NCBI GenBank assembly: GCA_038244085.1
Contig: JBBRTX010000004.1
Span: 163,179 to 195,178, forward strand
Direction: 5' to 3'
DNA: 32,000 nt
From: Bacteroidales bacterium
GTDB lineage: Bacteria; Bacteroidota; Bacteroidia; Bacteroidales; FEN-979
The number at the start of each line of letters is the position of its first letter. Within the stretch, counting starts at the first letter, position 1. The notes under the pieces were generated by a model that worked only from the letters and a program-made list of their open reading frames with translations, ran no database searches and was not told where the DNA came from. Of the stretch, positions 14,957-32,000 are shown piece after piece. The position numbers and the translations under genes are program-made.

Positions 14957-14968
14957 TTCTGATCAGCC

Positions 14969-16027: not shown

Positions 16028-16167
16028 ATCGCGATGCCGGATGGCGGGGATTTGTAATGCGCTCCTTGCACAAACCTTGAAAGCAAGGGTTTCGAACCCC
16101 TGCTGCAAATGCAAAATTTGGAATTTGATGTAAATTGTGATAAAGGCTATTATTAACACCAAACAAG

Positions 16168-18662: not shown

Positions 18663-18670
18663 TATATTTG
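18663..18670 (+). promoter_or_regulatory. Candidate Bacteroidota -7 box (TATATTTG fits TAnnTTTG) upstream of the hybrid kinase gene
   Basis: Exact TAnnTTTG match 55 nt upstream of ATG 18725. A TTTG at 18646-18649 is closer than the usual -33 spacing, so support is weak. Confidence 0.25.
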
Positions 18671-18724
18671 GGGAAATATTTTCTGGGTTATTCGATTCGC
18701 TGCGATTTTCCTTTTAGGGTTTAC

Positions 18725-20602
18725 ATGCAAAAAAAGTTGTTATTGGTCGATGATGATTCTTACTTGTCAGGTGTGCTTAAGCGTTCACTTGAAAAGGAAG
18801 GTTTTGTTGTTGAATTGGCCGCTTCCGGTGAAGAAGCAATGAAAGTCCTCACTGAAACCCGGATAAACCTTATTTTAATGGATATTGAACTGGGGTCAGG
18901 GATGGATGGCATTGAATCGGCCAGGAAGATCCTGAGCAAAGAAATAATACCGGTTATTTTCCTTTCTTCCCATACCGAACGACGTTATGTTGATAAGGCA
19001 GGTGAGGTTTCTTCGTATGGGTATGTAGTAAAAGACAGTGGTATACCGGTTTTGATTGCTTCCATCCGAATGGCATTTCGTTTACATGAAGCCTATTGTG
19101 AACTAAAAGTAAAAGAAGAAGAGGTCAGGGAAAAGGAACGGATTCTTGCCGAATCGCAGAAAATCGCCAGACTGGGCAGTTTTACGCTTAACATGCGAAC
19201 CGGAATTTGGAAAAGTTCGGTTGTGCTGAATGAAATTTTTGGAATTGATCAGGATTTTCAGCGGACCATCGATGGCTGGCTGGCCATTATCCCTGAAGAT
19301 TCCAGACAAGGCGTACATGGGGATTTTTATAATTGTGTTAAAAACAAGTCACGATTTGACCGGGAATACAGAATCATCCGGCCGAAAGACGGAAAAGAAA
19401 GGTGTGTACATTCATTGGGTGCCTTTGACCAGGCTGACGGTAATATGATGATCGGAACTGTTCTGGATATAACCGAAAGAAAAAGAGCGGAAAAAGCAAT
19501 CAGCGAAAGCGAAACAAAATACAGAACCCTTTTGAATGCTTCACCGGAGGGGATCATTGTCATGGATCTAAAGGGTAAGATCACAGATGTATCTACCATT
19601 GCGCTTGAGTTATTCGAGAAGAAGAATTTTAGTGAGCTGACAGGGAAAACACTGTATGATCTCGTTGATGGCGAAGAGGTTAAGCGGTTAAAGGATATAC
19701 TAAAGACAACGCTTGCGGAAGGGCTTATTCAGAATGTTGAAATAATGCTGAATCGGAATGTCGCCTCAAAATTCCCGGCTGAGATCAGTACAACCCTTAT
19801 CCAGGAGAGCGATGGGAAACCCAGGGCTTTCATGGCGATCATCCGGGATATCTCCGAACGAAAGAAAATGGAGCAACAGATGATCCACTCCGAAAGGATG
19901 ATCAGCCTGGGCGAAATGGCTGCAGGGATTGCACATGAGATCAATCAGCCCCTGAATAATATTTCCTTATCGCTGGAAAACATACTGTTTAATTTAAACA
20001 CGGGCGAGGAGATCAATAAAAAGTATCTTCAGTCCAAATCAAAAAACATCTTCGACGGAATCACACGAATCGAGAACATCATTGACTACATAAGGGCCTA
20101 TTCCAGGCGGCAGGATGATTTCATTTCAGCTCCCTTCGATCTGAATGCAAGTATCCGGTTTGCCGTGATGCTGGTTTCCGAGCAACTCGGAAATAAAGGC
20201 ATTGAGCTGGAAATGGATCTGTATCCCGAGCCAATCATCATTGCCGGAAACACCTTCAAATTTGAACAGGTGATCCTTAATCTCATGGTTAACGCAAAGG
20301 ATGCCATCGAAGAAAGAGCTAAAACGGCAAAACCATCATTCGGGAAGTATATCAGGGTAAGATCATGGCAGAAAGATCAATATTTCCTGACCCAGATCAG
20401 CGATTCAGGGGTAGGCATTAAACCAGAAGATATGGATAAGATCATGCTTCCTTTTTATACCACCAAGGAGTTGGGGAAAGGGACCGGGCTGGGGTTACCG
20501 CTTTCCTACAAAATTATCAATGAGATGAAGGGGGAAATACATATTGAAAGCAAGGTTATGGAAGGTACAACCATAAAGATTAAAATACCCATAAATTGTT
20601 AG
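18725..20602 (+). CDS. Hybrid sensor histidine kinase: N-terminal receiver + two PAS domains + HisKA/HATPase_c
   Basis: Start set at ATG 18725 (MQKKLLLVDDD). REC motifs include LILMDIELG. Two PAS-like segments end in DITERK and DISERK. H-box AAGIAHEINQPL, N-box NLMVNAKDAI, G-boxes DSGVGI and GTGLGL. No TM helices, so it is cytoplasmic. Confidence 0.85.
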   Translation: MQKKLLLVDDDSYLSGVLKRSLEKEGFVVELAASGEEAMKVLTETRINLILMDIELGSGMDGIESARKILSKEIIPVIFLSSHTERRYVDKAGEVSSYGYVVKDSGIPVLIASIRMAFRLHEAYCELKVKEEEVREKERILAESQKIARLGSFTLNMRTGIWKSSVVLNEIFGIDQDFQRTIDGWLAIIPEDSRQGVHGDFYNCVKNKSRFDREYRIIRPKDGKERCVHSLGAFDQADGNMMIGTVLDITERKRAEKAISESETKYRTLLNASPEGIIVMDLKGKITDVSTIALELFEKKNFSELTGKTLYDLVDGEEVKRLKDILKTTLAEGLIQNVEIMLNRNVASKFPAEISTTLIQESDGKPRAFMAIIRDISERKKMEQQMIHSERMISLGEMAAGIAHEINQPLNNISLSLENILFNLNTGEEINKKYLQSKSKNIFDGITRIENIIDYIRAYSRRQDDFISAPFDLNASIRFAVMLVSEQLGNKGIELEMDLYPEPIIIAGNTFKFEQVILNLMVNAKDAIEERAKTAKPSFGKYIRVRSWQKDQYFLTQISDSGVGIKPEDMDKIMLPFYTTKELGKGTGLGLPLSYKIINEMKGEIHIESKVMEGTTIKIKIPINC

Positions 20603-20619
20603 GACTTAAAGCAAAAACC

Positions 20620-22038
20620 ATGAATATCAATGGAGGAAACCCTCAGTCGGGCAGAGATAAACTGTCTGTGCTGATTCTGGATGATGAAAAGATTTTTACA
20701 TCAGAACTTCGCGAATTTCTTGAAAAGAAAGGATTTACAGCGGTTGAGGCCAACCTTCCGGACGAAGGGCTGAAGATCCTGAAAAAAGAGACGACGGATC
20801 TGCTGATCCTGGATGTAAGGTTGCCAGGGATCAGCGGGCTCGATATCCTGAAAGAGGTAAAAAAAGAATACACGGACCTTGAAGTCATCATTGTATCTGC
20901 CCATGGTGATATGGATACGGTCATCAAGGCGATGCAGGCCGGGGCGATCGATTATCTCCGGAAGCCATTTCGCCATCTTGATATCCAGATGGCCATCGAG
21001 CGTACACAGAAATATCTTCTGCTTCAGCGGAAGCTGAAGAATGCGGAAGAACGTTCGTCCCTGATCTCAAAGAACCTGGTGGACCAGATCGATCGTGAGT
21101 TTATCGGCGTAAGCCGGAAAATCCTGGATGTGCTGGAACTTGCCATGACCACGGCCCGGTTTCCCGATACCAATGTACTAATTACCGGTGAAAGTGGAAC
21201 CGGGAAGGAGAACATCGCACGGATCATCCATTATTCAAGTGCAAGAAAAGATCATCTCCTTTGGGCGGTCAACAGCAGTGCAATCACTGATTCACTGCTG
21301 GAAAGTGAGTTCTTCGGACATAAAAAAGGCTCCTTTACCGGTGCCATCAATGACAAAAAAGGTTTTTTCGAGATTTGTGACAAGGGGACGCTGTTTATGG
21401 ATGAGATTGCCGATATGCCGGCAAATCTTCAGGCGAAGGTTTTACGGGCCATTGAGGAAAAACAGATTACCAGGGTAGGGGATACCCACCCTGTAAAGAC
21501 TGATTTCCGTATTATTTCGGCCACCAATCATAACCTGGATGAACTGGTAATCAGCGGGAGATTCAGGCTTGATCTGATTCACCGACTGAATACAATTCAC
21601 ATTCATATTCCGTCGCTCAGGGAACGACCCGATGATATCGAGCCACTCCTGAATCACTTCATCAAGTACTTTTCTGTTCGTTTTAATAAGCTATTACCTG
21701 AAATTGACCGGAATATCATCAAGGTTCTTGAAAAATATGAGTTCCCGGGAAATATCAGGGAACTGAAAAATATGGCGGAAAGAGCCGTCATTCTCTGTAA
21801 GAACAATAAACTGACGTTGGCAGATTTCCCGGTTAAAGAGGAAAATCATTTATCGGTAGCGGTGGAAGGCCAGCCCGCTGCTTCCCTCGATCAAAACGAG
21901 AAGGAGTTTATCCTGCAGATGCTCGAAAAGCACAATTACCACCAGATTGATACTGCCGAAGCGCTCTCTGTCACTCGCCAGACTCTCATCCGAAAGATGA
22001 AGAAGTTTGACATCACGATCCGGAAAAAAGCAGAATAA
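20620..22038 (+). CDS. Sigma54-dependent response regulator (NtrC family: REC + AAA+ sigma54-interaction domain + Fis-type HTH)
   Basis: Start set at ATG 20620 (MNINGG...). LILDDE...LLILDVRLPG receiver. Walker A GESGTGKE. GSFTGA variant of the GAFTGA sigma54-contact loop. Walker B LFMDEI. C-terminal HTH ...EALSVTRQTLIRKMKKF. Confidence 0.9.
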   Translation: MNINGGNPQSGRDKLSVLILDDEKIFTSELREFLEKKGFTAVEANLPDEGLKILKKETTDLLILDVRLPGISGLDILKEVKKEYTDLEVIIVSAHGDMDTVIKAMQAGAIDYLRKPFRHLDIQMAIERTQKYLLLQRKLKNAEERSSLISKNLVDQIDREFIGVSRKILDVLELAMTTARFPDTNVLITGESGTGKENIARIIHYSSARKDHLLWAVNSSAITDSLLESEFFGHKKGSFTGAINDKKGFFEICDKGTLFMDEIADMPANLQAKVLRAIEEKQITRVGDTHPVKTDFRIISATNHNLDELVISGRFRLDLIHRLNTIHIHIPSLRERPDDIEPLLNHFIKYFSVRFNKLLPEIDRNIIKVLEKYEFPGNIRELKNMAERAVILCKNNKLTLADFPVKEENHLSVAVEGQPAASLDQNEKEFILQMLEKHNYHQIDTAEALSVTRQTLIRKMKKFDITIRKKAE

Positions 22039-22157: not shown

Positions 22158-22406
22158 ATGCCTTTTGAGTTAGGGAAGGCCATGCATGAATCCATTCCAC
22201 CGGGAAATCCGGAAGATGAAGCCGGTCTGCGGCTCGATGAGCAGATCCTTGAATACATCAAACAACACCAGGAAGGCGTTCGGATTACCACCATGGAGCA
22301 GAAGTTCAGGGAAAGCCGTATGCGCATCGGGTTTATCACAAAAAGGCTTTTAAATGAAGGCAAAATCCTGAGAATCCAGGACGATTTTTATCCCCCCGAA
22401 GATTAA
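22158..22406 (+). CDS. Small acidic hypothetical protein (82 aa), possible winged-helix fold
   Basis: Intact ORF between the sigma54 regulator and the giant gene. LDEQILEYIKQHQEGVRITTMEQKFRESRMRIGFITKRLLNEGKILRI has the helix-turn-helix-wing spacing seen in small wHTH proteins. No diagnostic motif, so the coding status is itself uncertain. Confidence 0.4.
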   Translation: MPFELGKAMHESIPPGNPEDEAGLRLDEQILEYIKQHQEGVRITTMEQKFRESRMRIGFITKRLLNEGKILRIQDDFYPPED

Positions 22407-22538: not shown

Positions 22539-22553
22539 TGGCTCATGTTTTGA
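22539..22553 (+). promoter_or_regulatory. Candidate sigma54 -24/-12 promoter element (TGGCTC-ATGTT-TTGA)
   Basis: Matches TGGCAC-N5-TTGC at the GG and the TTG with correct 10-nt GG-to-G spacing. It has A instead of the highly conserved C of the -12 GC. Located 162 nt upstream of the giant-gene ATG and next to a sigma54 activator gene. Confidence 0.25.
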
Positions 22554-22714
22554 ATAGGATAGAAGCATGGGGATTTATATTTTCAGATAATACTTCGGAT
22601 CCATGATGATTTTTTTCCGACGGAGGAATAAGGGAATCACCTATGATGAAAATCATTGAATAAGATATAAAGATTTAAGAATCAATAATAACCAATTTAA
22701 ACCAAAAAACCAGA

Positions 22715-22777
22715 ATGATGAAACAGCTATTTACCCTGCTCATTGCATTATTTACATTATGCAGTGTTGCCTTTTCG
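22715..22777 (+). other. Sec signal peptide of the giant protein (aa 1-21)
   Basis: Lys at position 3, a hydrophobic core LFTLLIALFTL, and AFS-A as a likely signal peptidase I site. Confidence 0.7.
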
Positions 22778-25700
22778 GCGAATTATCATGTTACATTGTA
22801 CAGCGCCGATGCTACACCTGTTGGAGGAATTGCGACATCCTCACCATCCCCCCAAATCCTTGGAACAGGATCATGGCAAAATAACCAAGCCGCCAGTAAA
22901 ATGGAGTTATATCTTCCATTAACGGCATTAGGTTCATTTACTATTGATGACATTGTCAGCCTAAAGTTTTCAACCCAAAAGACGACACCAATCCCGGCAT
23001 CACCAGACCTTGATTTTTTCTGGAGTATCTATACTATGCCCTACACTGGTGGATTTGCAACATGGTATGGACAAAAACTTACTTCAGAACCCATGTATTA
23101 CAACGGGTACGTTTCACTCTATAATGCATGGTCAACATACCAGACAGGTGGAACCTCAAACCAGATGACCTTTTTTGATTCAAATCACTCGCCAATTGGG
23201 TATAACAATGCACCCACTCTTGTTGATATTCAGGCTGGTCTTGTAAATTTTAATTATACAGCTCCTTATTGGACTTCAGGTACCGGTATTGATTATGGCG
23301 CTCAAACTGTAAAATATATTTCTATTGCTACTGGAGGTGCATGGAATAGTGCTATGTTATCATATCTTGATAACATTATTATTACCCTGACTAACGGAAA
23401 TACACTTACTATTGATTTAGAAAATGGTTATCCTAATCCGATCACTACCATTCAAGCACCGATTTCTCTTTCCTGTGGCACCTATGATGTACCTGTAACG
23501 GTTAAGGATTTTTCAGCAATTGGCGCAATCTCTCTTAATTTGAATTATGATCCTTTGGTTTTTGACTACCAGGGAGTTACGCTTAATCCGGCCATTGCCA
23601 CTGCGACCTATCAAAATCTTTCTGGAGTTTTCACACTTGGTCAATTCATATCACCTGAACCTGTGACCCTTCCTGACAATGCTGTTTTATTTACCTTGCA
23701 TTTGAATTTGAAACCCGCTATTTCCGGGGCAGCTACTAATTTCACCTGGAGTACGGTTTCCGGACAATGCGAATACGCAGGTCCTGGCGGAACACCAACA
23801 TATGTCAGCAGTTTCGTTGACCGTTCATGGCCAATTCCTGTAAGGCCTGTTAAAAATACAGATACAGGATTGGAATATTGTACGATCCAGGCGGCGATTG
23901 ATGCAGCTTCAGCAGGCAATACTATTACAGTGGCTGCGGGGACTTATGCTGAAAATCTAACAATTAATAAATCTTTAATTATTCTCGGGCCAAATGCAGC
24001 CAGCGATGGTTGTGGCTCACGCATAGCTGAAGCAATCATCGTTCCTGCTACGAATAGTCCGGCAGACTGGAGTTCACAGTTAGTATTATTAACTGCCAGT
24101 AATATTACTATCAAGGGGTTGACATTTGATGGAGACAACCCACTACTTAATGGTGCTGGAGACTATAATGTTAGCCAAGGAATTGTTGGTTCCACGGGAC
24201 AAGCTAATATCGTGATTGAGAATAACATTCTTAAAAATATGACTTCAGCAGCTGTGTATTTATGTGACGATGCAACGACCTCAAGTACAAGTGGCAATAT
24301 TATCAATAAAAATAAAATTGATAATATAAGCCCTACTGCAGGTTTTGGTATTGGAGTTTATACAGGCAACAACACTTATGTTGACATTACCAATAACTGT
24401 ATGACCAATGTCCGCAAAGGGATTCAGGGTGGTGAAAACAACCATAAAGCCAATGCCGGTAATATTAGCCCTGTATGGTCAGGCAACACAATTCAGTCGT
24501 ACAAAATTGGCATCTGGAATAATTTAGCTTATAGTTTAGCTACTCCGGTTACCATTACTGGTAATACCGTAACGACTGTTTCTGGTTCAACTATCAATAG
24601 TGGTATTGAAATTAGTTCAATACAAGGAACAAGTTCTGTAAATGTTTACGGCAATACGGTAACCGGTGCAATGGCAGGGATAAACCTTTGGAGCAATACT
24701 ACAACTGGTCCTTTAGCCATAGGAGCTAATACTTTTATAGATTGCAGCTATGGCGTATTTGCCAATAACTATGATGGATATAGTTCAAATGCCAATTCAA
24801 GTTCTTACATTATTAATGGAGGAACCATTACCAATCCATTATTGGCAGCAGTTTATGTAAAAGATAATTTACTTAATAGCAACGGTGCAACTGTAGCTGT
24901 TAATATTGCCGGAACAAGTATCTCAGGAACGGCAAGCGGTATGAAAGCTTTCCTGGTTGAAGGCGGCAGTGCATCTTTAAGTTTTTCAGGCGCTCAACCA
25001 CAAGCTACTATTGTAGGAGCACCCAAATATATTGTACTTCAGAGTAACACTTTAGATGTTCCAGCAGGAAATATCGATGCAACGCTGGTAATGCTGGATA
25101 CAAAGTACGGTTCGACAATGGATCTTCCGACGCTGTTTGCAGCGGAAGATAGAATCGATCATAAAATCGATAATGCTGCTCTTGGGTTTGTAACAGTAAA
25201 AGCCAATAACGATTATGTAACTGTAAATAGTTTTGTGGCGCCCAATACTACTCCGCTTATTCAGCGCGGTATTGATGTAGCTTCGACAGGTTGGACAGTG
25301 AATGTGGCTGAAGGAACTTACAATAAAGTTGTTAATATAAACAAGGCCAATTTAACTTTAAAAGGCATTGGCCCTAACAAACCATTAATTATTCCTGATG
25401 GTACAGATGCTCCACAAACAGATGGCCGTAGGGTTGGTATTTATATAAATGAGGTTGATGGTGTAACTATCGACAATTTTGAAGTTGATGGTACCAATAG
25501 CACAATCCTTCAGTACGGTATCTACGGTTTTAATACCTATTCAACTACAGTAAAGAATTGTAAAGTTCATGATATTGGTGCTATTGACAATTCAACAGGA
25601 ATTGGAATTTTGTATTTTGGTTATGATCATGATATAAAAAATGCGATAATTGATGATAATATTGTGTATAATACCGGAAGACAGGGTATTATAGTCAATG

Positions 25701-28700
25701 CAATGAATGAAACCCCATTTAATTGGTTATTAAATGATAATAATAAAATACGTAATAATACAGTTCATGACTGTTGGAAAACTGGTAATAATGGTGCTTC
25801 AGTCCAGATAATTGGGGCTTTAAATTCGGAAATTTCTGGCAACACTGTTTATAATACATTCAATCGTAACATGACTTATGGTATCTCTATCATGGGATCA
25901 GCCGGAATTAACAATTCTATTACCGGTAATATCTTGTATAATAATGATAGGGCCATTTTTATTGAATCAATTTACAATTCAGTTTTATGGGGAAGCAATG
26001 CAGCAGCTTCGCCAAGGATCGTATCCAACAGTATTATTGGTTCAATTTATAACCTAAATAATGCAAATAATTTACTTTTGGATGCTTCCTGCAACTGGTG
26101 GGGAACAAATACGGTTAGCGGCGTTTCGTCGCTGATATCTGGTCTGGTTAATTACACTCCCTGGCTGATTGATGGCACCGATATGGGTAATCCTGGTTTC
26201 GTACCCGGTGGTTCATGCTCAGGTGCAACCGACCTCTTTGTGAACGATGGTACCCTCAATGTCAATGACATATATACTACAGCTATAGGTAACGATGCCA
26301 ATCCGGGAACACATTCAGCTCCATTTTTAACTATTGGTAAAGCTGTTTCAACAGCCGTTGCCGGAACCAAAATATGGGTGGATGCAGGAACTTTCCAGGA
26401 ACAGATTTCTGTTGGTAAGACTGTAGATATTACTGGTGTGGACAGGACGAAAACGATTGTGAAAGCACCTACAACTTTATTCGGATTTATAAATGCCAAC
26501 GGCACTTCTTATGCAATTATTTATGCCAATGGTAATACAAATACCATCAATATTGATAAAATCCTTGTTGATGGTGACAATGGAAGGCCAGATGCTACCT
26601 TTACAGGAGTTCATTATTTTGCTGCAAATGGAGCATTCACAAATTCCAGAATTACAGCAATCAGGAATAATCCTTTCAGCGGAGTCCAGGGAGGGACAGC
26701 TTTCACTGCCAATCATCAATGGGATATTTCAGTTCTCCAAACGGTAACAGTTGATAATAACATCATTGACGATTACCAGAAGGCCGGCATAGTGATTAAT
26801 GAACTCAACACTCAGGGTATTATTACTAACAATACGGTAACTGGTCAGAATATTCCTTTGGTAACTGGTCAGAACGGGATTCAGCTCGCATATGGTGCAT
26901 ATGGAACCATTACCGGTAACATTGTTACAAACAACATCTGGAATAAGGTTGAGCATCCGCATGTGTGGACTGCTTCAGGGATTTTACTCGTAGGTGTAGG
27001 CATAGATTATCATAATGCTGCCACAGGCAAACTGACAGTTGTTGACGGAAATAATCTTAATGGAAATGAGGTCGGGCTTTTTGTTGCAGGAGATAATACA
27101 TTCGGTTATACTTCAAATGCAGGTTTAACTATTAATCCAAATACATTTAGCAATAACAAGATTCATGTTTCAATGAATAGTCCTTCAATTGTTCCTTCTG
27201 CTCCCGTTAGCTACGATAAACGTGTTGATAATCCTGATCAAACCAATATTGTATTTGGTTGCATCCAGTATGCGATTGATGAAGCAAGCACGGGAAACAC
27301 CCTGAATGCCAGTGCAGGAACATTCATTGAGAATGTTAACGTTCATACTGCGGTTAGCATCCTTGGCCCGAATGCGGCCATTAACCCGAACACAGGTGCT
27401 CGTGGACCTGAAGCCTATGTAAAACCTGCAGCCACTGATGTAAGCAACGGAATCGTTTTTATCGTCCAGAAGAGTAATACCATCATTAAGGGATTTACTA
27501 TTGATGGCGACAATCCTGGCCTTTCGGGCGGAACCAACGTATTTGGTATTGACGTCAATGCAAGGGGAGGTATCTGCAATGGTTTGTTTAACGGACCTTA
27601 CAGCCAGGTGGATAATCTACGGTTTGAGAACAATATTTTCAAGGATTTTATTTCTGATGGAATTTATATCGAAAATTCCTTCGGTGCCAACTATTCCTGG
27701 AATTACCTTGTGAACAATCAGTTTGATAAAATGCGGGAAGGGGTTCAAACCTATGCTCTTCATGCTGACATTTCCGGTAACTTCATGACCCATGTCAACC
27801 GTGGTATCAGTATTCACGGTACTAATACTGCCTGCGATGATGGATTTGTTCCTAAAATCAATAACAATGATATTACATTGTCCTGGCAGTGGGTTCATCC
27901 GTCATTATCTGGAAACAGGGCGATCGGGATCTGGGTGAATTATCGCCGACAAAATGCTGCTGATCTGATTGTAAACACTAATATAATACGCTTTCCCGAA
28001 GCAATATCGGGAGGTATTTCAGCCTGGGGTATTTATTCAATAACCATGGATGATAATCGTAAGGTTACTTATACCGGTAATTCCGTAATTGGTGCTGGTA
28101 ATTGTAATATTGGTTATTATACCTCGGCGGTTTCCAGTCCAAATGTAAAGGTTACCGGCGGTTCACTTTCGGGTATTAAAGATTACGGAGTACTTGCAAC
28201 TACGAATGACCCAGTCTGGGGTGCAGGTGATGCAAGTGTTACGCTTGACAATGTCAACATCAGCGTTGCAGCCGGTGGAATTGGTGTAAAAGCCTATATG
28301 GATCCTGCCGCTTCTTCAAATGTTGCCGTCGTAAATGTAACCAACAATTGTGATATCACTGGTGGAACTACCGGTATCCTTGCCGAAGGAGTCCATGCTT
28401 CAGTATCAGTAACTAACAATGTCACGACCATTACGGGTAACCAGGTTGGTATTCTTATCAAAAATGGAGGTAACCTTCTTTCCTGTAATAATAACACGAT
28501 AACCAATAATACAGTTGGTGGGATTATCATTGAATCCACCGCAGGTACCATTGGCATTATAAGCGATAATACGATCAGCGGGAATGGCCCTGCTCCTCAC
28601 GGACTGGGTGTCAGCAATGCAAAGTCTTCTTCTGTAAACGCTATAAACAACTGGTGGGGTGATGCCACAGGTCCCTATAATGACCCGAACAATACCTGCG

Positions 28701-31183
28701 GGCTTGGGAATGCCGTATCAGCCAAGGTTGATTTTAAACCCTGGTACCAGTATGCTTCGATGACGACTTTTTACACGCTTCCACTTCCGTTGTTATCGTC
28801 ATGTACTTCTCCGATAACGCTGGATCAGCATGCTGAAAGAGATCCTTATGCTACCGGTACGCCAACGGTCACTACCTGTTACGGTCCTTATTCCTTAACT
28901 TATGATGATAACCGTTCCGGGCTAACTTCCTGCAATGCAACCGGTACGATCATCCGCACCTGGACTGTAAAGGACTATTTTGATAATACCACAACCTGTG
29001 TTCAGAATATTGTTATCCAGGATAATGATAACCCGGTTGTTACCTGTCCATCCAATATAGTGACATATACAGATCCCGGACTATGCACTGCAGTAGAGAC
29101 ATTCAATCCAACAGCCACAGACTTCGGATTCTTCCAGGGATTTGAAAATCCTAATTGGGTTGCCGGTCTTGCCGCGAACAATCCTTCTGTTGATTGGAAT
29201 GAATATAGTAGCCCAATTGTTCGAGTTACTTCCGGAACTGATGGTATCACTTCAAAGTCTGGGAGTGCACATGCCGTTATAAATTCCACAGCTAACATTA
29301 ATCCAAATACTACGGGCGCATTTGGTCGACTAGGTGGATATAATGGTACTTTCGGCTTAGGCTTTATTTCGAAAGTGGATGTCTATTTTAATATGTCAGA
29401 TGGACGCATATCTACCGGTACTTACGGATGGGACCTTGATCAGGCCGTTAGCAGTAGCAGTGCTGGATTCCTGCGTGATTTCGTTTACCATGTCGGCGGA
29501 GATAACACCGGAATATATGTGTGCGCAAGCAATAACTCAAATAATGTAATCCCGGCAATGAGCCCTGCTTATATTCAAACCCAGCCTCATGCTACAATTA
29601 CTGCAACAGGATGGTACACAATGGAGTGGGAAGCACGTGATAATGCAGGTTTCCTGGCTATGGATTTCAATATACGCAATGCTTCAGGTGCAATTGTATG
29701 GACAACTACTATCAACACTACCGATGCTATTGCTGGTGTAGGTGGAAATCGTTATATGTGGTTCAATTTTATCGCTGCTGATAAACTGGCAATTGATAAT
29801 ACAAGTTTATTACGCAAGTTATCGGTTACTGCATCCCCGGTAAGCGAAACTGTATTTGATATCGGCTCAACTCCTGTGAATGTTACATCCTTGGATGCTT
29901 GCGGAAAAACAGGAACCTGTAGCTTCACTGTGACCGTCGAAACTGTATCCATAGCCGGCGCCATTACCTATTATAACACTGCAAACACTCCGATGAATAA
30001 TGTGACCGTCAATCTCAAGCAGGGTGGTGCTACAAAATATACTGCTGTTGCAAATGGATTTGGCGGCTATTCTTTCTCCGGTGTGTGTAACGGCAATTAT
30101 GATGTGGTATTCTCGACTTCCAAACCTGCTGGTGGTATCAACTCGACTGATGCTGCACAGGTAAATGCCTGGTCGGTAGGACCGCAGTATTCAATTGAAA
30201 AGGTGAGGTTCTTTGCCGGTGATGTTGTTAGGGACGGAAACATTCTGCCTCTTGATGCCCAGAGAATTGTACAATACTTTGTATCCGGCGGAGCTCTTGC
30301 ATTCAATCCTGATTGGACTTACTGGAAAACAAATGACCCTACCACAACGAACGCGGGTACTTATGCTTTGACACTGAATGTAACCGGTCCGCTGACGCAG
30401 AATTTTTATGCGCTGGCAACCGGAGACTTTAACCGCAGCTTTATTCCTGGCGGTGCCAAGAGCGCAAGTGACAACCTTGAATTGAATATCAATGGCAGCA
30501 TACAGGCAGAGAAGGGGATTGAGTTCGAATTACCGGTCTATGCAAGTGCTGCAATGGATGTGACGGCTGTTTCGATGATCCTCAACGTTCCGTCTGATAA
30601 ACTTGAAGTGACAGGAATCTACCTCGGCGCTAACCTGGCAAGTCCGCTGGATTATGCGGCAACCGGCGATGAACTCAGGATCGGATGGCAATCACTTTCC
30701 CCCGTTTCCCTGAATCCAGGTGAAAAACTTCTCACCCTGAAGCTCAGGTTGAAGGTTGAACTGGGAGAAGGCGAGTCAATCCGTTTCAGCCTTGCCGGCA
30801 ACGAACTCAATGAGCTTGCCGATGCCGACTACGATGTTATTCCAAATGCTGTGTTATTCACAAATGCTATAGGATCAGCGCTCGGAGTTGATGTGCTGCC
30901 GGGATTCGGAACACTCACTTTTGCCAACTACCCCAATCCGTTCAGGAACCAGACAACCTTTGCTTATTCCCTGCCAGTCGACGGTTTCGTTTCGATTGAA
31001 ATCTGTAATATGCTGGGAAGTAAATTGAAAACGCTGGTGAATGAAATGCAGACAGCGGGAGATCATACCCTGACACTGGATGCCAACATCATGGGGCCGG
31101 GCGTTTACATCGCTACCTTAAGGCTTAACGCAAAAGGCCAGCAATTCAATCGACTGATCAAGATTATACGCAACCAGGATTAA
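22715..31183 (+). CDS. Giant (2822 aa) T9SS-secreted multidomain surface protein: signal peptide, cohesin-like module, four right-handed beta-helix cassettes, HYR-like modules, dockerin-like segment, second cohesin-like module, T9SS C-terminal sorting domain
   Basis: Single uninterrupted 8.5 kb ORF. The N-terminal signal peptide is MMKQLFTLLIALFTLCSVAFS|A. Domain calls are listed separately below. N/T/G/S-rich composition is typical of PbH1 beta-helix proteins. Confidence 0.9.
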   Translation: MMKQLFTLLIALFTLCSVAFSANYHVTLYSADATPVGGIATSSPSPQILGTGSWQNNQAASKMELYLPLTALGSFTIDDIVSLKFSTQKTTPIPASPDLDFFWSIYTMPYTGGFATWYGQKLTSEPMYYNGYVSLYNAWSTYQTGGTSNQMTFFDSNHSPIGYNNAPTLVDIQAGLVNFNYTAPYWTSGTGIDYGAQTVKYISIATGGAWNSAMLSYLDNIIITLTNGNTLTIDLENGYPNPITTIQAPISLSCGTYDVPVTVKDFSAIGAISLNLNYDPLVFDYQGVTLNPAIATATYQNLSGVFTLGQFISPEPVTLPDNAVLFTLHLNLKPAISGAATNFTWSTVSGQCEYAGPGGTPTYVSSFVDRSWPIPVRPVKNTDTGLEYCTIQAAIDAASAGNTITVAAGTYAENLTINKSLIILGPNAASDGCGSRIAEAIIVPATNSPADWSSQLVLLTASNITIKGLTFDGDNPLLNGAGDYNVSQGIVGSTGQANIVIENNILKNMTSAAVYLCDDATTSSTSGNIINKNKIDNISPTAGFGIGVYTGNNTYVDITNNCMTNVRKGIQGGENNHKANAGNISPVWSGNTIQSYKIGIWNNLAYSLATPVTITGNTVTTVSGSTINSGIEISSIQGTSSVNVYGNTVTGAMAGINLWSNTTTGPLAIGANTFIDCSYGVFANNYDGYSSNANSSSYIINGGTITNPLLAAVYVKDNLLNSNGATVAVNIAGTSISGTASGMKAFLVEGGSASLSFSGAQPQATIVGAPKYIVLQSNTLDVPAGNIDATLVMLDTKYGSTMDLPTLFAAEDRIDHKIDNAALGFVTVKANNDYVTVNSFVAPNTTPLIQRGIDVASTGWTVNVAEGTYNKVVNINKANLTLKGIGPNKPLIIPDGTDAPQTDGRRVGIYINEVDGVTIDNFEVDGTNSTILQYGIYGFNTYSTTVKNCKVHDIGAIDNSTGIGILYFGYDHDIKNAIIDDNIVYNTGRQGIIVNAMNETPFNWLLNDNNKIRNNTVHDCWKTGNNGASVQIIGALNSEISGNTVYNTFNRNMTYGISIMGSAGINNSITGNILYNNDRAIFIESIYNSVLWGSNAAASPRIVSNSIIGSIYNLNNANNLLLDASCNWWGTNTVSGVSSLISGLVNYTPWLIDGTDMGNPGFVPGGSCSGATDLFVNDGTLNVNDIYTTAIGNDANPGTHSAPFLTIGKAVSTAVAGTKIWVDAGTFQEQISVGKTVDITGVDRTKTIVKAPTTLFGFINANGTSYAIIYANGNTNTINIDKILVDGDNGRPDATFTGVHYFAANGAFTNSRITAIRNNPFSGVQGGTAFTANHQWDISVLQTVTVDNNIIDDYQKAGIVINELNTQGIITNNTVTGQNIPLVTGQNGIQLAYGAYGTITGNIVTNNIWNKVEHPHVWTASGILLVGVGIDYHNAATGKLTVVDGNNLNGNEVGLFVAGDNTFGYTSNAGLTINPNTFSNNKIHVSMNSPSIVPSAPVSYDKRVDNPDQTNIVFGCIQYAIDEASTGNTLNASAGTFIENVNVHTAVSILGPNAAINPNTGARGPEAYVKPAATDVSNGIVFIVQKSNTIIKGFTIDGDNPGLSGGTNVFGIDVNARGGICNGLFNGPYSQVDNLRFENNIFKDFISDGIYIENSFGANYSWNYLVNNQFDKMREGVQTYALHADISGNFMTHVNRGISIHGTNTACDDGFVPKINNNDITLSWQWVHPSLSGNRAIGIWVNYRRQNAADLIVNTNIIRFPEAISGGISAWGIYSITMDDNRKVTYTGNSVIGAGNCNIGYYTSAVSSPNVKVTGGSLSGIKDYGVLATTNDPVWGAGDASVTLDNVNISVAAGGIGVKAYMDPAASSNVAVVNVTNNCDITGGTTGILAEGVHASVSVTNNVTTITGNQVGILIKNGGNLLSCNNNTITNNTVGGIIIESTAGTIGIISDNTISGNGPAPHGLGVSNAKSSSVNAINNWWGDATGPYNDPNNTCGLGNAVSAKVDFKPWYQYASMTTFYTLPLPLLSSCTSPITLDQHAERDPYATGTPTVTTCYGPYSLTYDDNRSGLTSCNATGTIIRTWTVKDYFDNTTTCVQNIVIQDNDNPVVTCPSNIVTYTDPGLCTAVETFNPTATDFGFFQGFENPNWVAGLAANNPSVDWNEYSSPIVRVTSGTDGITSKSGSAHAVINSTANINPNTTGAFGRLGGYNGTFGLGFISKVDVYFNMSDGRISTGTYGWDLDQAVSSSSAGFLRDFVYHVGGDNTGIYVCASNNSNNVIPAMSPAYIQTQPHATITATGWYTMEWEARDNAGFLAMDFNIRNASGAIVWTTTINTTDAIAGVGGNRYMWFNFIAADKLAIDNTSLLRKLSVTASPVSETVFDIGSTPVNVTSLDACGKTGTCSFTVTVETVSIAGAITYYNTANTPMNNVTVNLKQGGATKYTAVANGFGGYSFSGVCNGNYDVVFSTSKPAGGINSTDAAQVNAWSVGPQYSIEKVRFFAGDVVRDGNILPLDAQRIVQYFVSGGALAFNPDWTYWKTNDPTTTNAGTYALTLNVTGPLTQNFYALATGDFNRSFIPGGAKSASDNLELNINGSIQAEKGIEFELPVYASAAMDVTAVSMILNVPSDKLEVTGIYLGANLASPLDYAATGDELRIGWQSLSPVSLNPGEKLLTLKLRLKVELGEGESIRFSLAGNELNELADADYDVIPNAVLFTNAIGSALGVDVLPGFGTLTFANYPNPFRNQTTFAYSLPVDGFVSIEICNMLGSKLKTLVNEMQTAGDHTLTLDANIMGPGVYIATLRLNAKGQQFNRLIKIIRNQD
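23441..23839 (+). other. Cohesin-like module 1 (aa ~243-375)
   Basis: ...GTYDVPVTVKDFSAIGAISLNLNYDPLVFDYQGVTLNP...GVFTLGQF...DNAVLFTLHLNLKP...TNFTW follows the cohesin pattern: a hydrophobic strand, then xPVxV, L.L.YDP..L, and later G.LFTL.F. Confidence 0.55.
23867..28750 (+). other. Four tandem right-handed parallel beta-helix (PbH1 / pectate-lyase-fold) cassettes (aa ~385-845, 846-1160, 1170-1500, 1505-2012)
   Basis: Each cassette opens with a variant of the xIQxAIDxAxxGxTIxVxxGTYxExV cap: CTIQAAIDAASAGNTITVAAGTYAENL; PLIQRGIDVASTGWTVNVAEGTYNKVV; FLTIGKAVSTAVAGTKIWVDAGTFQEQI; GCIQYAIDEASTGNTLNASAGTFIENV. Each continues with ~22-25-aa NxxxxGxxI/V turns. Cassettes 2 and 4 end with CNWWGTN...YTPW and NNWWGDATGP...FKPW. 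Confidence 0.7.
28796..29122 (+). other. Cys-containing Ig-like/HYR-like region (aa ~2028-2136)
   Basis: ...TVTTCYGPYSLTYDDNRSGLTSCNATGTIIRTWTVKDYFDNTTTCVQNIVIQDNDNPVVTCPSNIVTYTDPGLCTAVETFNPTATD. The xPxxxCPxxIxxxxDxGxCxAxVxxxxPxAxD stretch is the N-terminal half of an HYR-type repeat. Confidence 0.5.
30125..30289 (+). other. Dockerin-like segment (aa ~2471-2525)
   Basis: The second repeat GDVVRDGNILPLDAQRIVQYFV fits the dockerin Ca-loop/helix pattern D-x-x-x-D-G-x-I-x-x-x-D-A-x-x-I. The first repeat AGGINSTDAAQVNAW keeps G-x-I-N-x-x-D-A but lacks the first acidic ligands. Confidence 0.5.
30476..30874 (+). other. Cohesin-like module 2 (aa ~2588-2720)
   Basis: LELNINGSIQAEKGIEFELPVYASAAMDVTAVSMILNVPSDKLEVTGIYLG...GDELRIGWQSLSPVSLNPGEKLLTLKLRLKVELGEGESIRFSL follows the cohesin strand pattern. 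Confidence 0.55.
30911..31180 (+). other. Type IX secretion system C-terminal sorting domain (Por_Secre_tail, TIGR04183-like)
   Basis: ANYPNPFRNQTTFAYSLPVDGFVSIEICNMLGSKLKTLVNEMQTAGDHTLTLDANIMGPGVYIATLRLNAKGQQFNRLIKIIRN shows the canonical NYPNPF...I.i.d..G......l.....G.h...ld...l..GvY...l......K.i.k layout at the extreme C-terminus. Confidence 0.85.
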
Positions 31184-31190
31184 CAGAAAA

Positions 31191-31234
31191 AACGAGAACG
31201 GGAGCAAGATTCTCCCGTTCTCGTTTTTATTTAT
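31191..31234 (+). terminator. Rho-independent terminator after the giant gene
   Basis: Perfect 14-bp stem AACGAGAACGGGAG (31191-31204) / CTCCCGTTCTCGTT (31212-31225), a 7-nt loop, then TTTATTTAT. It begins 8 nt after the stop codon. Confidence 0.8.
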
Positions 31235-31335
31235 CAATGGAAAAATATTATCTAACTCATTATTAAACAAAAAGATTGAAGAGAGAAGAGATCGTTGGAT
31301 TTTTTTGAAAATTTAATTTTTTTTCAAGCTGGGAA

Positions 31336-32000
31336 ATGAAAAAAATTAAACAAATAGCGTGGGTTCTTATTTATTTACCCTTCATCGGTATTCAGGCTCA
31401 AAACGGACCTGTTACCCTTGCAGGCAATATTGTTACACCGGATTCTTCAATTACACTTCCTGTTATTGCTTCCGATTTTAACAACATCGGAAGTTGTGGC
31501 TTGCAACTGTTGTATGATCCGGAAATTATGATTGCCACTGCCGTTACTGCCGGTCCGCTTCTTGGCGGCAATTTGAATTCAAACCTTACCGTTGCGGGCC
31601 GGATAATCCTGGGATGGTACACCTGGCCAGGTGTTTCTCTGGCCGACAGCACGGTGATTTTTAACATTGTTTTTTCAAGAGCCATAACCGGGACTTCTGC
31701 TATTACCTGGTTTGATGATGGTTACTCTTGTTATTACAGCAATGGTCAATCTGTCATCTTAAACGATCTGCCTTCCAATAACTACTATATCAATGGTTCT
31801 GTGACTTTTCAGTTGCCAGCGCCCTTTACGATGGCTCCTTCAATCAGTGCGTTTCCGGGTACAACTGTTGATATCCCTATTAGGATATCCGGCTTCCGGG
31901 ATATCGGGAAGATCAACCTTGTCCTTCAATATGATCCGCTGGTGCTTTCCTTGCAGACCTGGTCGGATTCCTCCGGATTTCCGGGCTTGACGGTTCGGGA
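31336..32000 (+). CDS. Secreted protein with tandem cohesin-like modules (5' part; runs off the window end)
   Basis: Absent from the ORF track because it is open-ended. ATG at 31336 gives MKKIKQIAWVLIYLPFIGIQAQ (signal peptide). Next comes ...ITLPVIASDFNNIGSCGLQLLYDPEIMIATAV...ADSTVIFNIVFSR...ITWF..., followed by a second module, ...TVDIPIRISGFRDIGKINLVLQYDPLVLSLQTW... The frame stays open for 221 codons to the window edge. Confidence 0.7.
   Translation, partial: MKKIKQIAWVLIYLPFIGIQAQNGPVTLAGNIVTPDSSITLPVIASDFNNIGSCGLQLLYDPEIMIATAVTAGPLLGGNLNSNLTVAGRIILGWYTWPGVSLADSTVIFNIVFSRAITGTSAITWFDDGYSCYYSNGQSVILNDLPSNNYYINGSVTFQLPAPFTMAPSISAFPGTTVDIPIRISGFRDIGKINLVLQYDPLVLSLQTWSDSSGFPGLTVR

What the first reader, a model, noticed from the sequence alone, without database searches (positions are those of the whole stretch)
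22715..32000. Candidate T9SS-exported cohesin/dockerin-like surface assembly built around a 2822-aa multi-beta-helix protein
One protein combines all of the following: (i) a Sec signal peptide and a T9SS C-terminal sorting domain, implying export and probable covalent surface anchoring; (ii) four beta-helix cassettes; (iii) two cohesin-like modules; and (iv) a dockerin-like segment. The next gene starts after a strong terminator and encodes a secreted protein made of further cohesin-like modules. Cohesin-dockerin pairs are the glue of clostridial cellulosomes. Non-cellulosomal cohesin- and dockerin-like modules are known to be widespread, but their functions are largely untested. A cargo carrying both partner types could polymerise head-to-tail. 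It could also dock onto the neighbouring multi-cohesin protein, giving a self-assembling fibre or layer on a Bacteroidota outer membrane. With the dedicated sigma54 two-component system upstream, this reads as a self-contained, conditionally expressed surface-assembly locus, which I have not seen described as such.
Basis: partly seen in the sequence, partly recalled or inferred. Interest (0 to 1): 0.8.

Follow-up and report, generated by a model that had tools for sequence, protein, structure and literature searches.

The report
Giant surface protein with cohesin-dockerin tail
An uncultured Bacteroidota bacterium encodes a 2822-residue exported surface protein carrying two cohesin modules and one dockerin-like module, followed by a small surface-anchored two-cohesin protein; this gene pairing recurs in related bacteria and probably forms a cellulosome-style "plug and socket" assembly that has nothing to do with cellulose.

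Summary
ORF 22715-31183 encodes 2822 aa with a signal peptide, an unknown N-terminal domain, a cohesin (Pfam 29.9 bits; fold TM 0.78), four beta-helix cassettes and HYR modules. The last ~420 aa are a beta-sandwich with an embedded dockerin-like three-helix module, a second divergent cohesin, and a type A T9SS sorting domain. The downstream gene, recovered from an identical public contig, encodes 399 aa: signal peptide, two cohesins and a T9SS sorting domain.

New findings:
- The sandwich/dockerin/cohesin tail is one colinear unit. It is present in 51 of 131 homologues and in 87 further database representatives, ending about 96 aa before the C-terminus.
- In all six loci examined where the giant carries this tail, cohesin-protein genes lie within two genes downstream. 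A tail-less homologue has none.

The cohesin-dockerin assembly reading is therefore plausible but untested. The first dockerin Ca loop is degenerate. The dockerin's partner is unknown: neighbour cohesins, its own tail cohesin in cis, or other giants. The sigma-54 two-component system recurs in only one other locus, and no convincing sigma-54 promoter was found. No CAZyme or CBM is present, so this is not a cellulosome. Verdict: a new variant of the non-cellulosomal cohesin-dockerin kind.

The parts
18668..20602 (+). Hybrid sensor histidine kinase (REC-PAS-PAS-HisKA-HATPase)
   Evidence: Pfam. Overlaps the next gene by 7 nt.
20596..22038 (+). Sigma-54-dependent response regulator (REC, AAA+ Sigma54_activat, HTH_8)
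   Evidence: Pfam PF00158 199 bits. 42% identical to the regulator upstream of the giant in L008.
22158..22406 (+). Small 82-aa ORF, winged-helix-like (weak RPA_C match). Not conserved in the related loci.
   Evidence: Gene call in the identical contig L013. Pfam 23.7 bits. No tblastn match in other loci.
22539..22554 (+). Weak sigma-54 promoter-like site, TGGCTCATGTTTTGAA. Not significant.
   Evidence: Two mismatches, with -12 GA instead of GC. 22 such sites in the window versus 14.8 expected.
22715..22777 (+). Signal peptide of the giant protein (aa 1-21)
   Evidence: Sequence read by eye. Homologues align from residue ~21.
22778..23425 (+). N-terminal domain of unknown family (aa 22-237)
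   Evidence: 62-70% identical in 14 homologues. No Pfam, NCBIfam or PDB match. The AF2 model is poor here.
23426..23854 (+). Cohesin 1 (aa 238-380), type-I-like, same class as the neighbour's cohesins
   Evidence: PF00963 29.9 bits. Foldseek TM 0.78-0.79 to 1g1k and 3ul4. BLAST E 1e-9 to the downstream cohesins.
23855..28744 (+). Four right-handed beta-helix cassettes (aa 381-840, 841-1170, 1171-1500, 1501-2010)
   Evidence: PF13229, DUF1565 and NosD hits. N-cap motifs at aa 391, 849, 1207 and 1517. Each cassette has a different best homologue, showing mosaicism.
28745..29944 (+). HYR-like modules flanking a 230-aa unknown domain (aa 2126-2355, nt 29090-29779)
   Evidence: PF02494 30.4 bits. 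The unknown domain is up to 82% identical in homologues and has no Pfam, PDB or NCBIfam match.
29945..30466 (+). Beta-sandwich (SdrD-B / CarboxypepD_reg-like) with an embedded dockerin-like three-helix module (aa 2469-2535, nt 30119-30319), similar to an X-dockerin dyad
   Evidence: SdrD_B 29.3 bits, Dockerin_1 21.8 bits. Profile hits to XDoc 4wi0_B/4u3s_B at E 1.7e-5. AF2 places helices at aa 2477-2488, 2496-2502 and 2512-2523, with strands before and after. Loop residue census.
30467..30889 (+). Cohesin 2 (aa 2585-2725), a divergent class
   Evidence: Profile hit to 2xdh at E 4.6e-7. Foldseek TM 0.60-0.72 to cohesins. No Pfam hit.
30890..31183 (+). T9SS type A C-terminal sorting domain (aa 2726-2822) and stop codon
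   Evidence: TIGR04183 35.9 bits against cutoff 23. PF18962 28.4 bits against cutoff 27.
31188..31228 (+). Intrinsic-terminator-like hairpin (17-bp stem, 7-nt loop, T-rich tail)
   Evidence: strand folding gives -26.7 kcal/mol, z = -8.6.
31336..32000 (+). Start of the 399-aa SP-cohesin-cohesin-T9SS CTD protein. It runs about 535 nt past the window end.
   Evidence: PF00963 45.3 bits in 2 stretches. The identical contig L013 gives 357 of the 399 aa with the CTD start LRFYPNPF, and the gene call lists Cohesin plus Por_Secre_tail.

Best explanation
What the sequence shows. The locus encodes two T9SS substrates of an uncultured Bacteroidota bacterium that belong together.
- The first is a mosaic, adhesin-like giant. 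Its layout is: unknown tip domain and cohesin at the N-terminus, then four beta-helix cassettes and HYR modules as a long variable stalk, then a fixed tail. The tail is a beta-sandwich with an embedded single-site dockerin, a second cohesin, and a type A sorting domain.
- The second is a small protein made of two cohesins and a sorting domain.

How it probably works (inferred).
- Both proteins cross the inner membrane by Sec and the outer membrane by the T9SS.
- Their sorting domains are then cleaved, and the proteins are either attached to the surface or released, as for other type A substrates.
- The dockerin-like module next to the membrane-proximal end of the giant then engages a cohesin. 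This follows the plug-and-socket principle that anchors cellulosomal scaffoldins through X-dockerin and type II cohesin.
- The most likely sockets are the cohesins of the neighbouring small anchored protein. The giant's own cohesins offer further sockets for other giants.
- The result would be a non-covalently cross-linked surface layer or a tethered fibre.

No enzyme or carbohydrate-binding module is involved, so the assembly would be structural or adhesive rather than degradative.
For: - Module identities rest on HMM, profile-to-PDB and fold evidence.
- The tail is one colinear unit in 51 of 131 homologues. In 87 further 50%-identity representatives it ends 93-105 aa before the C-terminus in 85 of 87 cases.
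- Cohesin-protein genes lie on the same strand within two genes downstream of the giant in 6 of 6 loci whose giant carries the tail. Several of these cohesin proteins carry T9SS sorting domains of their own.
- The one tail-less beta-helix homologue examined (L009) has no cohesin neighbour.
- Family-wide conservation within the dockerin: INSTDA in repeat 1 has N and D in 28/28 sequences and T in 27/28. Repeat 2 has the Ca ligands D1 (28/28), D/N5 (22/28) and D12 (27/28). From my own knowledge, the Ser-Thr pair of that motif is the cohesin-contact pair in C. thermocellum type I dockerins (structures 1OHZ, 2CCL).
- The closest PDB sequence match of cohesin 2 is the A. fulgidus non-cellulosomal cohesin. 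From my own knowledge, its host organism also has a single cognate dockerin.
- The sandwich-plus-dockerin region aligns to X-dockerin dyads, which in cellulosomes are the anchoring modules.
Against: - No binding data or complex model could be obtained here.
- The Pfam dockerin score is just below threshold.
- The first Ca loop lacks acidic ligands in the whole family.
- The giant has its own sorting domain, so it does not obviously need a non-covalent anchor.
- AF2 gives pTM 0.74 for the four-part tail.
- The locus has more cohesins (four) than dockerins (one).
- The T9SS machinery is not in the window.
Confidence: 0.5

Rival explanations
1. Cis pedestal. The dockerin-like module binds cohesin 2 of the same chain, or simply packs with it and the sorting domain. 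This makes a rigid membrane-proximal pedestal that is part of an extended T9SS tail. The neighbour's cohesins and cohesin 1 would then bind something else, such as other dockerin-like proteins encoded elsewhere or a non-protein ligand.
For: - The sandwich/dockerin and cohesin 2 never appear apart in the full matches. They keep a fixed order and a fixed distance from the C-terminus.
- AF2 gives pTM 0.74 and pLDDT 89.6 for the whole 418-aa tail, with only two short low-confidence linkers.
- Cohesin 2 is a different class from cohesin 1 and the neighbour's cohesins. BLAST gives E 0.22 for cohesin 1 versus cohesin 2, against 1e-9 for cohesin 1 versus the neighbour's cohesins.
Against: - pTM is indirect evidence. 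No coordinates or PAE were available to see whether the interface is the canonical cohesin-dockerin face.
- This reading does not by itself explain the strict synteny with cohesin-protein genes.
Confidence: 0.25
2. No cohesin-dockerin pairing at all. The cohesin-fold and EF-hand-like modules are only spacer or ligand-binding domains of a long adhesin, like the Ig-like, HYR and SprB repeats around them. The downstream cohesin proteins are simply further small surface proteins of the same domain repertoire.
For: - The dockerin is sub-threshold in Pfam and has one degenerate Ca loop.
- Passengers in the family are adhesin-type repeats: HYR, HYR_4C, SprB and beta-helix.
- From my own knowledge (Peer et al. 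2009, cited in PMC8542988), the functions of most non-cellulosomal cohesin-like modules are untested.
Against: - The residues conserved family-wide are exactly the dockerin signature residues.
- The region has profile-level similarity to X-dockerin dyads.
- Cohesin-only proteins are repeatedly encoded next to the only dockerin-bearing gene.
Confidence: 0.15
3. Cellulosome-like degradative complex. The beta-helix cassettes are polysaccharide lyases or epimerases, and the cohesin-dockerin modules organise them on the surface for polymer breakdown.
For: The beta-helices hit NosD, DUF1565 and Beta_helix, and homologues hit the Pel9A-like beta-helix family. Cloacimonadota MAGs were proposed to build a T9SS-anchored degradative complex (PMC8542988).
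Against: - No CAZyme catalytic family or CBM reaches threshold anywhere in the giant or its neighbour.
- The NosD and LIC10774 matches are far below their cutoffs: 28 versus 300 bits and 24 versus 380 bits.
- There are no SusC/D or glycoside hydrolase genes in the part of the window whose genes were scanned against Pfam (11526-32000). Genes before 11526 were not scanned.
Confidence: 0.1

Closest known systems
Cellulosomal anchoring through X-dockerin and type II cohesin (e.g. C. thermocellum CipA XDoc-SdbA; A. cellulolyticus ScaA XDoc-ScaB, PDB 4u3s/4wi0)
   Same: An Ig-like beta-sandwich is fused to a dockerin near the C-terminal end of a very large modular protein. Small cell-anchored proteins made of cohesins are encoded nearby. 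The family profile aligns across both the X and Doc parts of 4wi0_B/4u3s_B at E 1.7e-5.
   Different: - The host is a Gram-negative Bacteroidota, and anchoring is by T9SS sorting domains rather than SLH or sortase.
- The dockerin has only one intact Ca loop and is embedded within the sandwich, with strands before and after it.
- A cohesin and a sorting domain follow the dockerin in the same chain.
- There are no enzymes and no CBM.
Non-cellulosomal cohesin/dockerin of Archaeoglobus fulgidus (PDB 2xdh) and the modules surveyed by Peer et al. 2009
   Same: Cohesin and dockerin occur in a non-cellulolytic organism, including on one polypeptide. 2xdh is the best PDB sequence match of cohesin 2 (E 4.6e-7; Foldseek TM 0.67).
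   Different: The host is an archaeon and its proteins are small. There is no T9SS, no giant beta-helix/HYR passenger and no conserved gene neighbourhood of cohesin proteins. The statement that the archaeal modules bind each other comes from my own memory of Voronov-Goldman et al. 2011 and was not checked here.
Proposed T9SS-CTD-anchored scaffoldin system of Ca. Stygibacter (Cloacimonadota), PMC8542988
   Same: Cohesin-bearing proteins carry a T9SS C-terminal domain, and the assembly is inferred from MAG sequences only.
   Different: In that system a 3755-aa scaffoldin with tandem cohesins and CBMs receives dockerin-tagged enzymes (GH18, GH57, peptidases). Here the dockerin sits on a non-enzymatic giant that also carries cohesins, and the anchored cohesin proteins are small.
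Chlorobium chlorochromatii Cag_2037/Cag_2038 (bioRxiv 10.64898/2026.03.19.712371)
   Same: Neighbouring genes for very large surface proteins carry complementary cohesin and dockerin modules. Pairing is inferred from structure prediction, and the proposed role is in cell-surface tethering.
   Different: Export is by T1SS for an RTX protein. The cohesin and dockerin are on separate proteins. The phylum differs, and there is no sandwich/dockerin/cohesin/CTD tail.
Large T9SS-secreted repeat adhesins of Bacteroidota (e.g. SprB/RemA of Flavobacterium johnsoniae)
   Same: These are giant, repeat-rich, mosaic cell-surface proteins exported by the T9SS. Family members here carry SprB and HYR repeats.
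   Different: From my own knowledge, SprB uses a type B sorting domain and is a gliding adhesin. The present protein has a type A domain (TIGR04183) and the cohesin/dockerin modules.

Membership tests
Cohesin (PF00963) | Sequence match above the curated threshold | tested here: met
   Cohesin 1 scores 29.9 bits against 24.1. The downstream protein scores 45.3 bits in 2 stretches. Cohesin 2 gives no Pfam hit, but its family profile hits PDB cohesin 2xdh at E 4.6e-7.
Cohesin (PF00963) | Nine-stranded jelly-roll beta-sandwich fold | tested here: met
   Cohesin 1 model: TM 0.78-0.79 and rmsd 2.6-2.7 A to 1g1k and 3ul4, and the top ~40 hits are all cohesins. Cohesin 2 model: TM 0.60-0.72 to 2xdh, 5nrm, 4dh2, 2ccl and 1anu.
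Cohesin (PF00963) | Binds a cognate dockerin | not testable with these tools
   Needs a complex prediction with an interface read-out, or biochemistry.
Dockerin type I (PF00404) | Sequence match above the curated threshold | tested here: inconclusive
   21.8 bits against a cutoff of 22.9, covering profile positions 1-23 of 57 only. The family profile hits XDoc 4wi0_B/4u3s_B at E 1.7e-5 and dockerin 8ajy_B at E 0.03.
Dockerin type I (PF00404) | Two duplicated ~22-residue segments, each with an EF-hand-like Ca-binding loop followed by a helix | tested here: not met
   Repeat 2 keeps D1 (28/28), D/N5 (22/28) and D12 (27/28). Repeat 1 keeps only loop positions 9-12 (INSTD); its positions 1, 3 and 5 are T/N, K and V across the family. 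The three helices are present in the model. So this is a one-site, dockerin-like module rather than a canonical dockerin.
T9SS type A cargo | C-terminal sorting domain (TIGR04183 / PF18962) at the extreme C-terminus, plus an N-terminal Sec signal | tested here: met
   TIGR04183 scores 35.9 bits against 23. PF18962 scores 28.4 bits against 27. The signal peptide was read from the sequence.
T9SS type A cargo | T9SS machinery (porK-N, sov, porU/V) in the genome, and T9SS-dependent export | not testable with these tools
   The machinery is not in the 32-kb window. The organism is inferred to be Bacteroidota from a pyruvate kinase 66-70% identical to those of Bacteroidota/Bacteroidales MAGs.
Cellulosome | Dockerin-tagged carbohydrate-active enzymes and a scaffoldin with a CBM | tested here: not met
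   No CAZyme catalytic domain or CBM reaches threshold in the giant, the neighbour or the related loci's neighbours.
Sigma-54-dependent operon | Enhancer-binding protein adjacent, and a -24 GG / -12 GC promoter upstream of the target gene | tested here: inconclusive
   The enhancer-binding protein is present (PF00158 199 bits) and recurs in L008. The best promoter-like site has 2 mismatches including the -12 C, and such sites are not enriched in the window. Other loci lack the pair.
Right-handed parallel beta-helix (PF13229) / HYR (PF02494) | Sequence match above the curated threshold | tested here: met
   PF13229 scores 42.2 bits against 25.9. PF02494 scores 28.5-30.4 bits against 21.7.

The most novel reading that the evidence does not exclude
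The ~420-aa tail (beta-sandwich with embedded one-site dockerin, then cohesin, then type A sorting domain) marks a large, so far undescribed family of mosaic giant T9SS surface proteins in Bacteroidota. These giants are encoded together with dedicated small CTD-anchored 'mini-scaffoldins'. Together they would build a cohesin-dockerin cross-linked surface lattice or fibre, unrelated to polysaccharide degradation. That would be a Gram-negative, T9SS-based counterpart of cellulosome anchoring, used for cell-surface architecture or adhesion.
Probability: 0.35. Interest if true: 0.8.

Novelty: new variant of a known kind. Interest (0 to 1): 0.62.

Why it matters
Cohesin-dockerin pairs are among the strongest known protein-protein interactions, yet almost all functional knowledge comes from Gram-positive cellulosomes. 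Here the modules sit in a fixed tail in front of a T9SS sorting domain on non-enzymatic giant proteins, with cohesin-only, sorting-domain-bearing partners encoded next door in every locus examined.

If the pairing is real, it would give a concrete and testable function to the long-noted but unexplained non-cellulosomal cohesin/dockerin modules. It would also show how some Bacteroidota organise very large adhesin-like proteins on the outer membrane. And it would supply new orthogonal plug-and-socket pairs for surface display in Gram-negative hosts.

The conserved tail is also a practical search handle. 2626 50%-identity representatives score E <= 1e-30 against it, although part of that count comes from repeat-only proteins rather than the full tail.

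Tried and rejected
- Exact look-up of the giant protein's contig failed twice. The window's own contig was reached indirectly through the pyruvate kinase and the 82-aa ORF. That gave only 406 nt beyond the window, so 42 aa of the neighbour and all further downstream genes remain unseen.
- The GTDB genome scan did not contain this genome.
- Model coordinates and PAE are not returned by the tool. Cis versus trans packing of the dockerin could only be guessed from pTM.
- The N-terminal domain model is poor (pLDDT ~60-85) and gave no non-cohesin fold match.
- The 230-aa domain between the HYR modules has no Pfam, NCBIfam or PDB sequence match.
- The twin 'D.N.D..VYI.DYTD.WVP.FG' motifs at the end of the three-cohesin proteins of L001/L006 looked dockerin-like by eye but give no Pfam hit. 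I do not call them dockerins.
- I first took the tail to be a generic tail for any T9SS cargo, because it occurs in proteins of 407-6857 aa. Pfam on ten short members showed HYR, HYR_4C, SprB and cohesin passengers, and several start mid-domain, so they look like contig fragments. I therefore narrowed the claim to adhesin-like giants.
- L014 looked like a strain variant of the locus, but the protein is identical from M108 onward; only the gene call differs.
- The sigma-54 promoter search gave nothing significant.
- Peer et al. 2009 (PMC3035643) is not held.

Full report
**1. The observation**

The window holds one uninterrupted ORF at 22715-31183 (+) of 2822 aa. The same DNA is present without a single mismatch over 19,843 nt in an independent public assembly, Logan SRR19962014 contig 133707. 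The protein is also on record from a 212,792-nt NCBI contig. It is therefore not an assembly artefact.

A pyruvate kinase in the window is 66-70% identical to those of MAGs labelled Bacteroidota or Bacteroidales. Homologues of the giant come from Lentimicrobiaceae, Prolixibacteraceae and Bacteroidales MAGs. The organism is an uncultured Bacteroidota.

**2. Anatomy of the giant**

Scanning the whole protein against Pfam gave Beta_helix, DUF1565 and HYR above threshold. SdrD_B, CarboxypepD_reg and Por_Secre_tail were below threshold, and there was no cohesin or dockerin hit. Scanning the segments separately changed this.

- **Cohesin 1.** Residues 238-380 reach Cohesin PF00963 at 29.9 bits against a cutoff of 24.1.
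- **T9SS sorting domain.** The last 99 residues reach Por_Secre_tail at 28.4 bits (cutoff 27) and TIGR04183 at 35.9 bits (cutoff 23).
- **Dockerin-like segment.** Residues 2469-2535 reach Dockerin_1 at 21.8 bits, just under the cutoff of 22.9, and match only the first half of the profile.
- **Beta-helix cassettes.** Four N-cap motifs of the form I/L-Q-x-A-I-D...G-T-Y/F lie at aa 391, 849, 1207 and 1517, which confirms four cassettes.
- **Unassigned domains.** The N-terminal 216 residues and a 230-residue domain inserted between HYR modules (aa 2126-2355) match no family.

**3. The tail is one conserved unit**

BLAST of the segments against 131 homologues showed that 51 carry the whole stretch aa 2405-2730 as a single colinear match at 36-55% identity. 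It is always about 100 residues from their C-terminus.

A profile of 28 such tails was compared with PDB sequences:
- It hits the X-module-dockerin chains 4wi0_B and 4u3s_B of Acetivibrio cellulolyticus at E 1.7e-5, across the sandwich plus dockerin.
- It hits a free dockerin, 8ajy_B, at E 0.03.

AlphaFold2 on this alignment gave pLDDT 89.6 and pTM 0.74. Along the chain the model shows:
- a beta-sandwich (aa 2410-2467);
- three helices (aa 2477-2488, 2496-2502, 2512-2523);
- three further strands (aa 2534-2568);
- a short low-confidence linker;
- a beta-sandwich (aa 2588-2721) that Foldseek matches to cohesins at TM 0.60-0.72;
- a second short linker and the sorting domain.

The N-terminal cohesin was modelled separately. 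It matches type I cohesins at TM 0.78-0.79, with cohesins filling the top of the hit list.

Across the family its first repeat keeps only I-N-S-T-D-A and lacks acidic residues at loop positions 1, 3 and 5. The second repeat keeps D1, D/N5 and D12. It is a one-site, dockerin-like module embedded in a sandwich, closest in layout to an X-dockerin dyad.

**4. The neighbour**

After a strong hairpin (31188-31228, -26.7 kcal/mol, z = -8.6) a gene starts at 31336. The identical Logan contig shows it encodes 399 aa. Of these, 357 are readable: a signal peptide ending ...IQA/QNG, two cohesins (PF00963 44.6 bits in two stretches) and the start of a T9SS sorting domain, LRFYPNPF....

Its relatives are mostly signal peptide, one cohesin and a sorting domain, 255-275 aa long. 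The two neighbour cohesins resemble cohesin 1 of the giant (BLAST E 1e-9). Cohesin 2 belongs to a separate class.

**5. Conserved neighbourhood**

In every locus examined where the giant carries the tail, genes for cohesin proteins follow on the same strand within one or two genes.

| Locus | Giant | Downstream genes |
|---|---|---|
| Window | 2822 aa | 399 aa: two cohesins + CTD |
| L001 | 2959 aa | 676 aa with three cohesins; 391 aa; 676 aa with cohesin-PKD-CTD |
| L005 | 3519 aa | 266 aa cohesin-CTD; 311 aa with PKD hits; 759 aa with cohesin |
| L006 | 2607 aa | 675 aa with three cohesins; two further genes (393 aa, 705 aa) |
| L007 | 4358 aa | 646 aa cohesin-PKD-CTD; 405 aa cohesin |
| L008 | 4385 aa | 467 aa; 498 aa cohesin |

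A beta-helix homologue without the tail (L009) has no cohesin neighbour. L010 looks like a fragmented member of the family. Six of six is a small sample, but it is unlikely to be chance given that these loci otherwise share no flanking genes.

**6. Size of the family**

A profile of the tail without the sorting domain was searched against 1.84 billion 50%-identity representatives. It found 33,610 proteins at E <= 1e-3 and 2626 at E <= 1e-30. Part of these are SdrD-B repeat proteins that match only the sandwich.

Among 132 newly returned best hits, 87 contain the full tail. In 85 of those 87 it ends 93-105 residues (median 96) before the C-terminus. Ten of the shorter ones carry HYR, HYR_4C, SprB-repeat or cohesin passengers and a sorting domain, and several are evidently contig fragments.

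The tail thus belongs to a large family of adhesin-like mosaic giants, not to enzymes. Mosaicism is plain in the window protein itself. Beta-helix 1 is 74% identical to one homologue, beta-helix 3 is 74% identical to another, and the unknown middle domain is 82% identical to a third.

**7. Regulation**

A hybrid histidine kinase and a sigma-54 activator response regulator lie directly upstream on the same strand, separated from the giant by an 82-aa winged-helix-like ORF.

- A kinase plus sigma-54 regulator pair recurs upstream of the giant in L008, where the regulator is 42% identical.
- L006 has other two-component genes.
- L007 and L003 have none.
- The best -24/-12-like site upstream of the giant has two mismatches, including the -12 C. 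Such sites are not enriched in the window: 22 found versus 14.8 expected.

A regulatory link is possible but not established.

**8. Mechanism**

*Shown:* the two proteins have the sequence features of Sec- and T9SS-exported proteins, they carry cohesin and dockerin-like folds, and their genes travel together.

*Inferred:* after export, the dockerin-like module next to the membrane-proximal end of the giant plugs into a cohesin. Three geometries fit the data.
- **Docking onto the neighbour.** The partner would be the small anchored two-cohesin protein. This is favoured by synteny and by analogy with X-dockerin anchoring.
- **Packing in cis** with cohesin 2. This is favoured by the obligate colinearity of the two modules and by the high pTM of the whole tail.
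- **Reciprocal or head-to-tail links** between giants.

I put about 0.5 on a cohesin-dockerin-mediated assembly in trans, 0.25 on a cis pedestal, 0.15 on no pairing at all, and 0.1 on a degradative complex. The last is weak because no CAZyme or CBM reaches threshold.

**9. Comparison with what is known**

The nearest mechanistic analogue is cellulosome anchoring by X-dockerin and type II cohesin. The nearest sequence relative among solved structures is the A. fulgidus non-cellulosomal cohesin.

Two in-silico precedents exist for related ideas:
- a T9SS-CTD-bearing scaffoldin with dockerin-tagged enzymes in Cloacimonadota MAGs (PMC8542988);
- neighbouring giant proteins with complementary cohesin and dockerin in Chlorobium chlorochromatii (bioRxiv 10.64898/2026.03.19.712371).

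Full-text searches for cohesin or dockerin together with T9SS, scaffoldin, Bacteroidetes or Lentimicrobium found no description of this tail or this gene pairing. The held library lacks much of the subscription literature, including Peer et al. 2009.

I class the finding as a new variant of a known kind. It is not a cellulosome, since the defining enzymes and CBM were tested for and are absent. It is not a canonical dockerin, since one Ca loop is missing.

**10. Verdict**

The most valuable additions are three:
- the tail is a fixed, widespread unit;
- the neighbour is itself a T9SS-anchored two-cohesin protein;
- the giant/cohesin-protein pairing is conserved across loci.

Interest is 0.62. 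The system is coherent and testable and gives a handle on the old question of what non-cellulosomal cohesins and dockerins do, but no interaction has been shown and related proposals exist.

Noticed in passing
window 29090-29779 (aa 2126-2355 of the giant): A 230-aa domain inserted between HYR-like modules is the most conserved part of the protein: 75-82% identical in several homologues whose other parts are only 40-55% identical. It matches no Pfam, NCBIfam or PDB sequence. It could be the ligand-binding head of the adhesin.
   Followed up: partly
window 22778-23425 (aa 22-237): The N-terminal domain is conserved at 62-70% identity in 14 homologues and always sits directly before cohesin 1. 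It has no family match, and the AF2 model with 11 sequences is poor.
   Followed up: partly
L001 9715-11745 and L006 17918-19945: The three-cohesin, 675/676-aa proteins that follow the giants in two related loci lack a sorting domain. They end in two copies of a D-x-N-x-D-x-x-V-Y-I-x-D-Y-T-D-x-W-V-P-x-F-G motif, which is EF-hand-like and dockerin-like by eye. There is no Pfam hit. P0128 ends in a similar pair of acidic loops.
   Followed up: partly
window 31336-31401 and relatives P0121-P0129: The predicted signal peptides of the small cohesin proteins all end ...A/QN(A/G)PV, which puts Gln at the mature N-terminus. This fits the Bacteroidetes 'Q-rule' (PMC10653852). The giant itself does not follow it (AFS/ANY).
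   Followed up: no
window 22715-31183 versus homologues P0002-P0014: The mosaic pattern is strong: each beta-helix cassette has a different closest homologue, at 53-74% identity. Several contigs carry two family members (P0049 and P0069 on one contig; two divergently oriented large ORFs in L003, only one of them compared here). This suggests cassette shuffling among paralogues.
   Followed up: partly
window 14210-16917: A separate three-gene module lies upstream: a LiaF-like membrane protein, a LytS-type histidine kinase (PF06580) and a LytTR response regulator. It is separated from the sigma-54 system by a pyruvate kinase gene on the opposite strand.
   Followed up: no
window 22158-22406: An 82-aa ORF with a weak winged-helix (RPA_C) match lies between the sigma-54 regulator and the giant. 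It is called as a gene in public assemblies but has no counterpart in the related loci. L006 and L008 have unrelated small ORFs at the same position.
   Followed up: partly
L003 9140-9154: A perfect TGGCAT-N5-TTGC sigma-54-type site lies about 780 nt upstream of the giant homologue in L003, although no sigma-54 regulator lies within the 10 kb upstream there.
   Followed up: no
L014 2587-8700 (Logan SRR19962012_92764): In a sister sample the giant gene is called from Met108, and the gap to the 82-aa ORF is 630 nt instead of 309 nt. The protein is identical from residue 108 onward. I did not check whether the N-terminal difference is a real variant or an assembly or gene-calling effect.
   Followed up: partly
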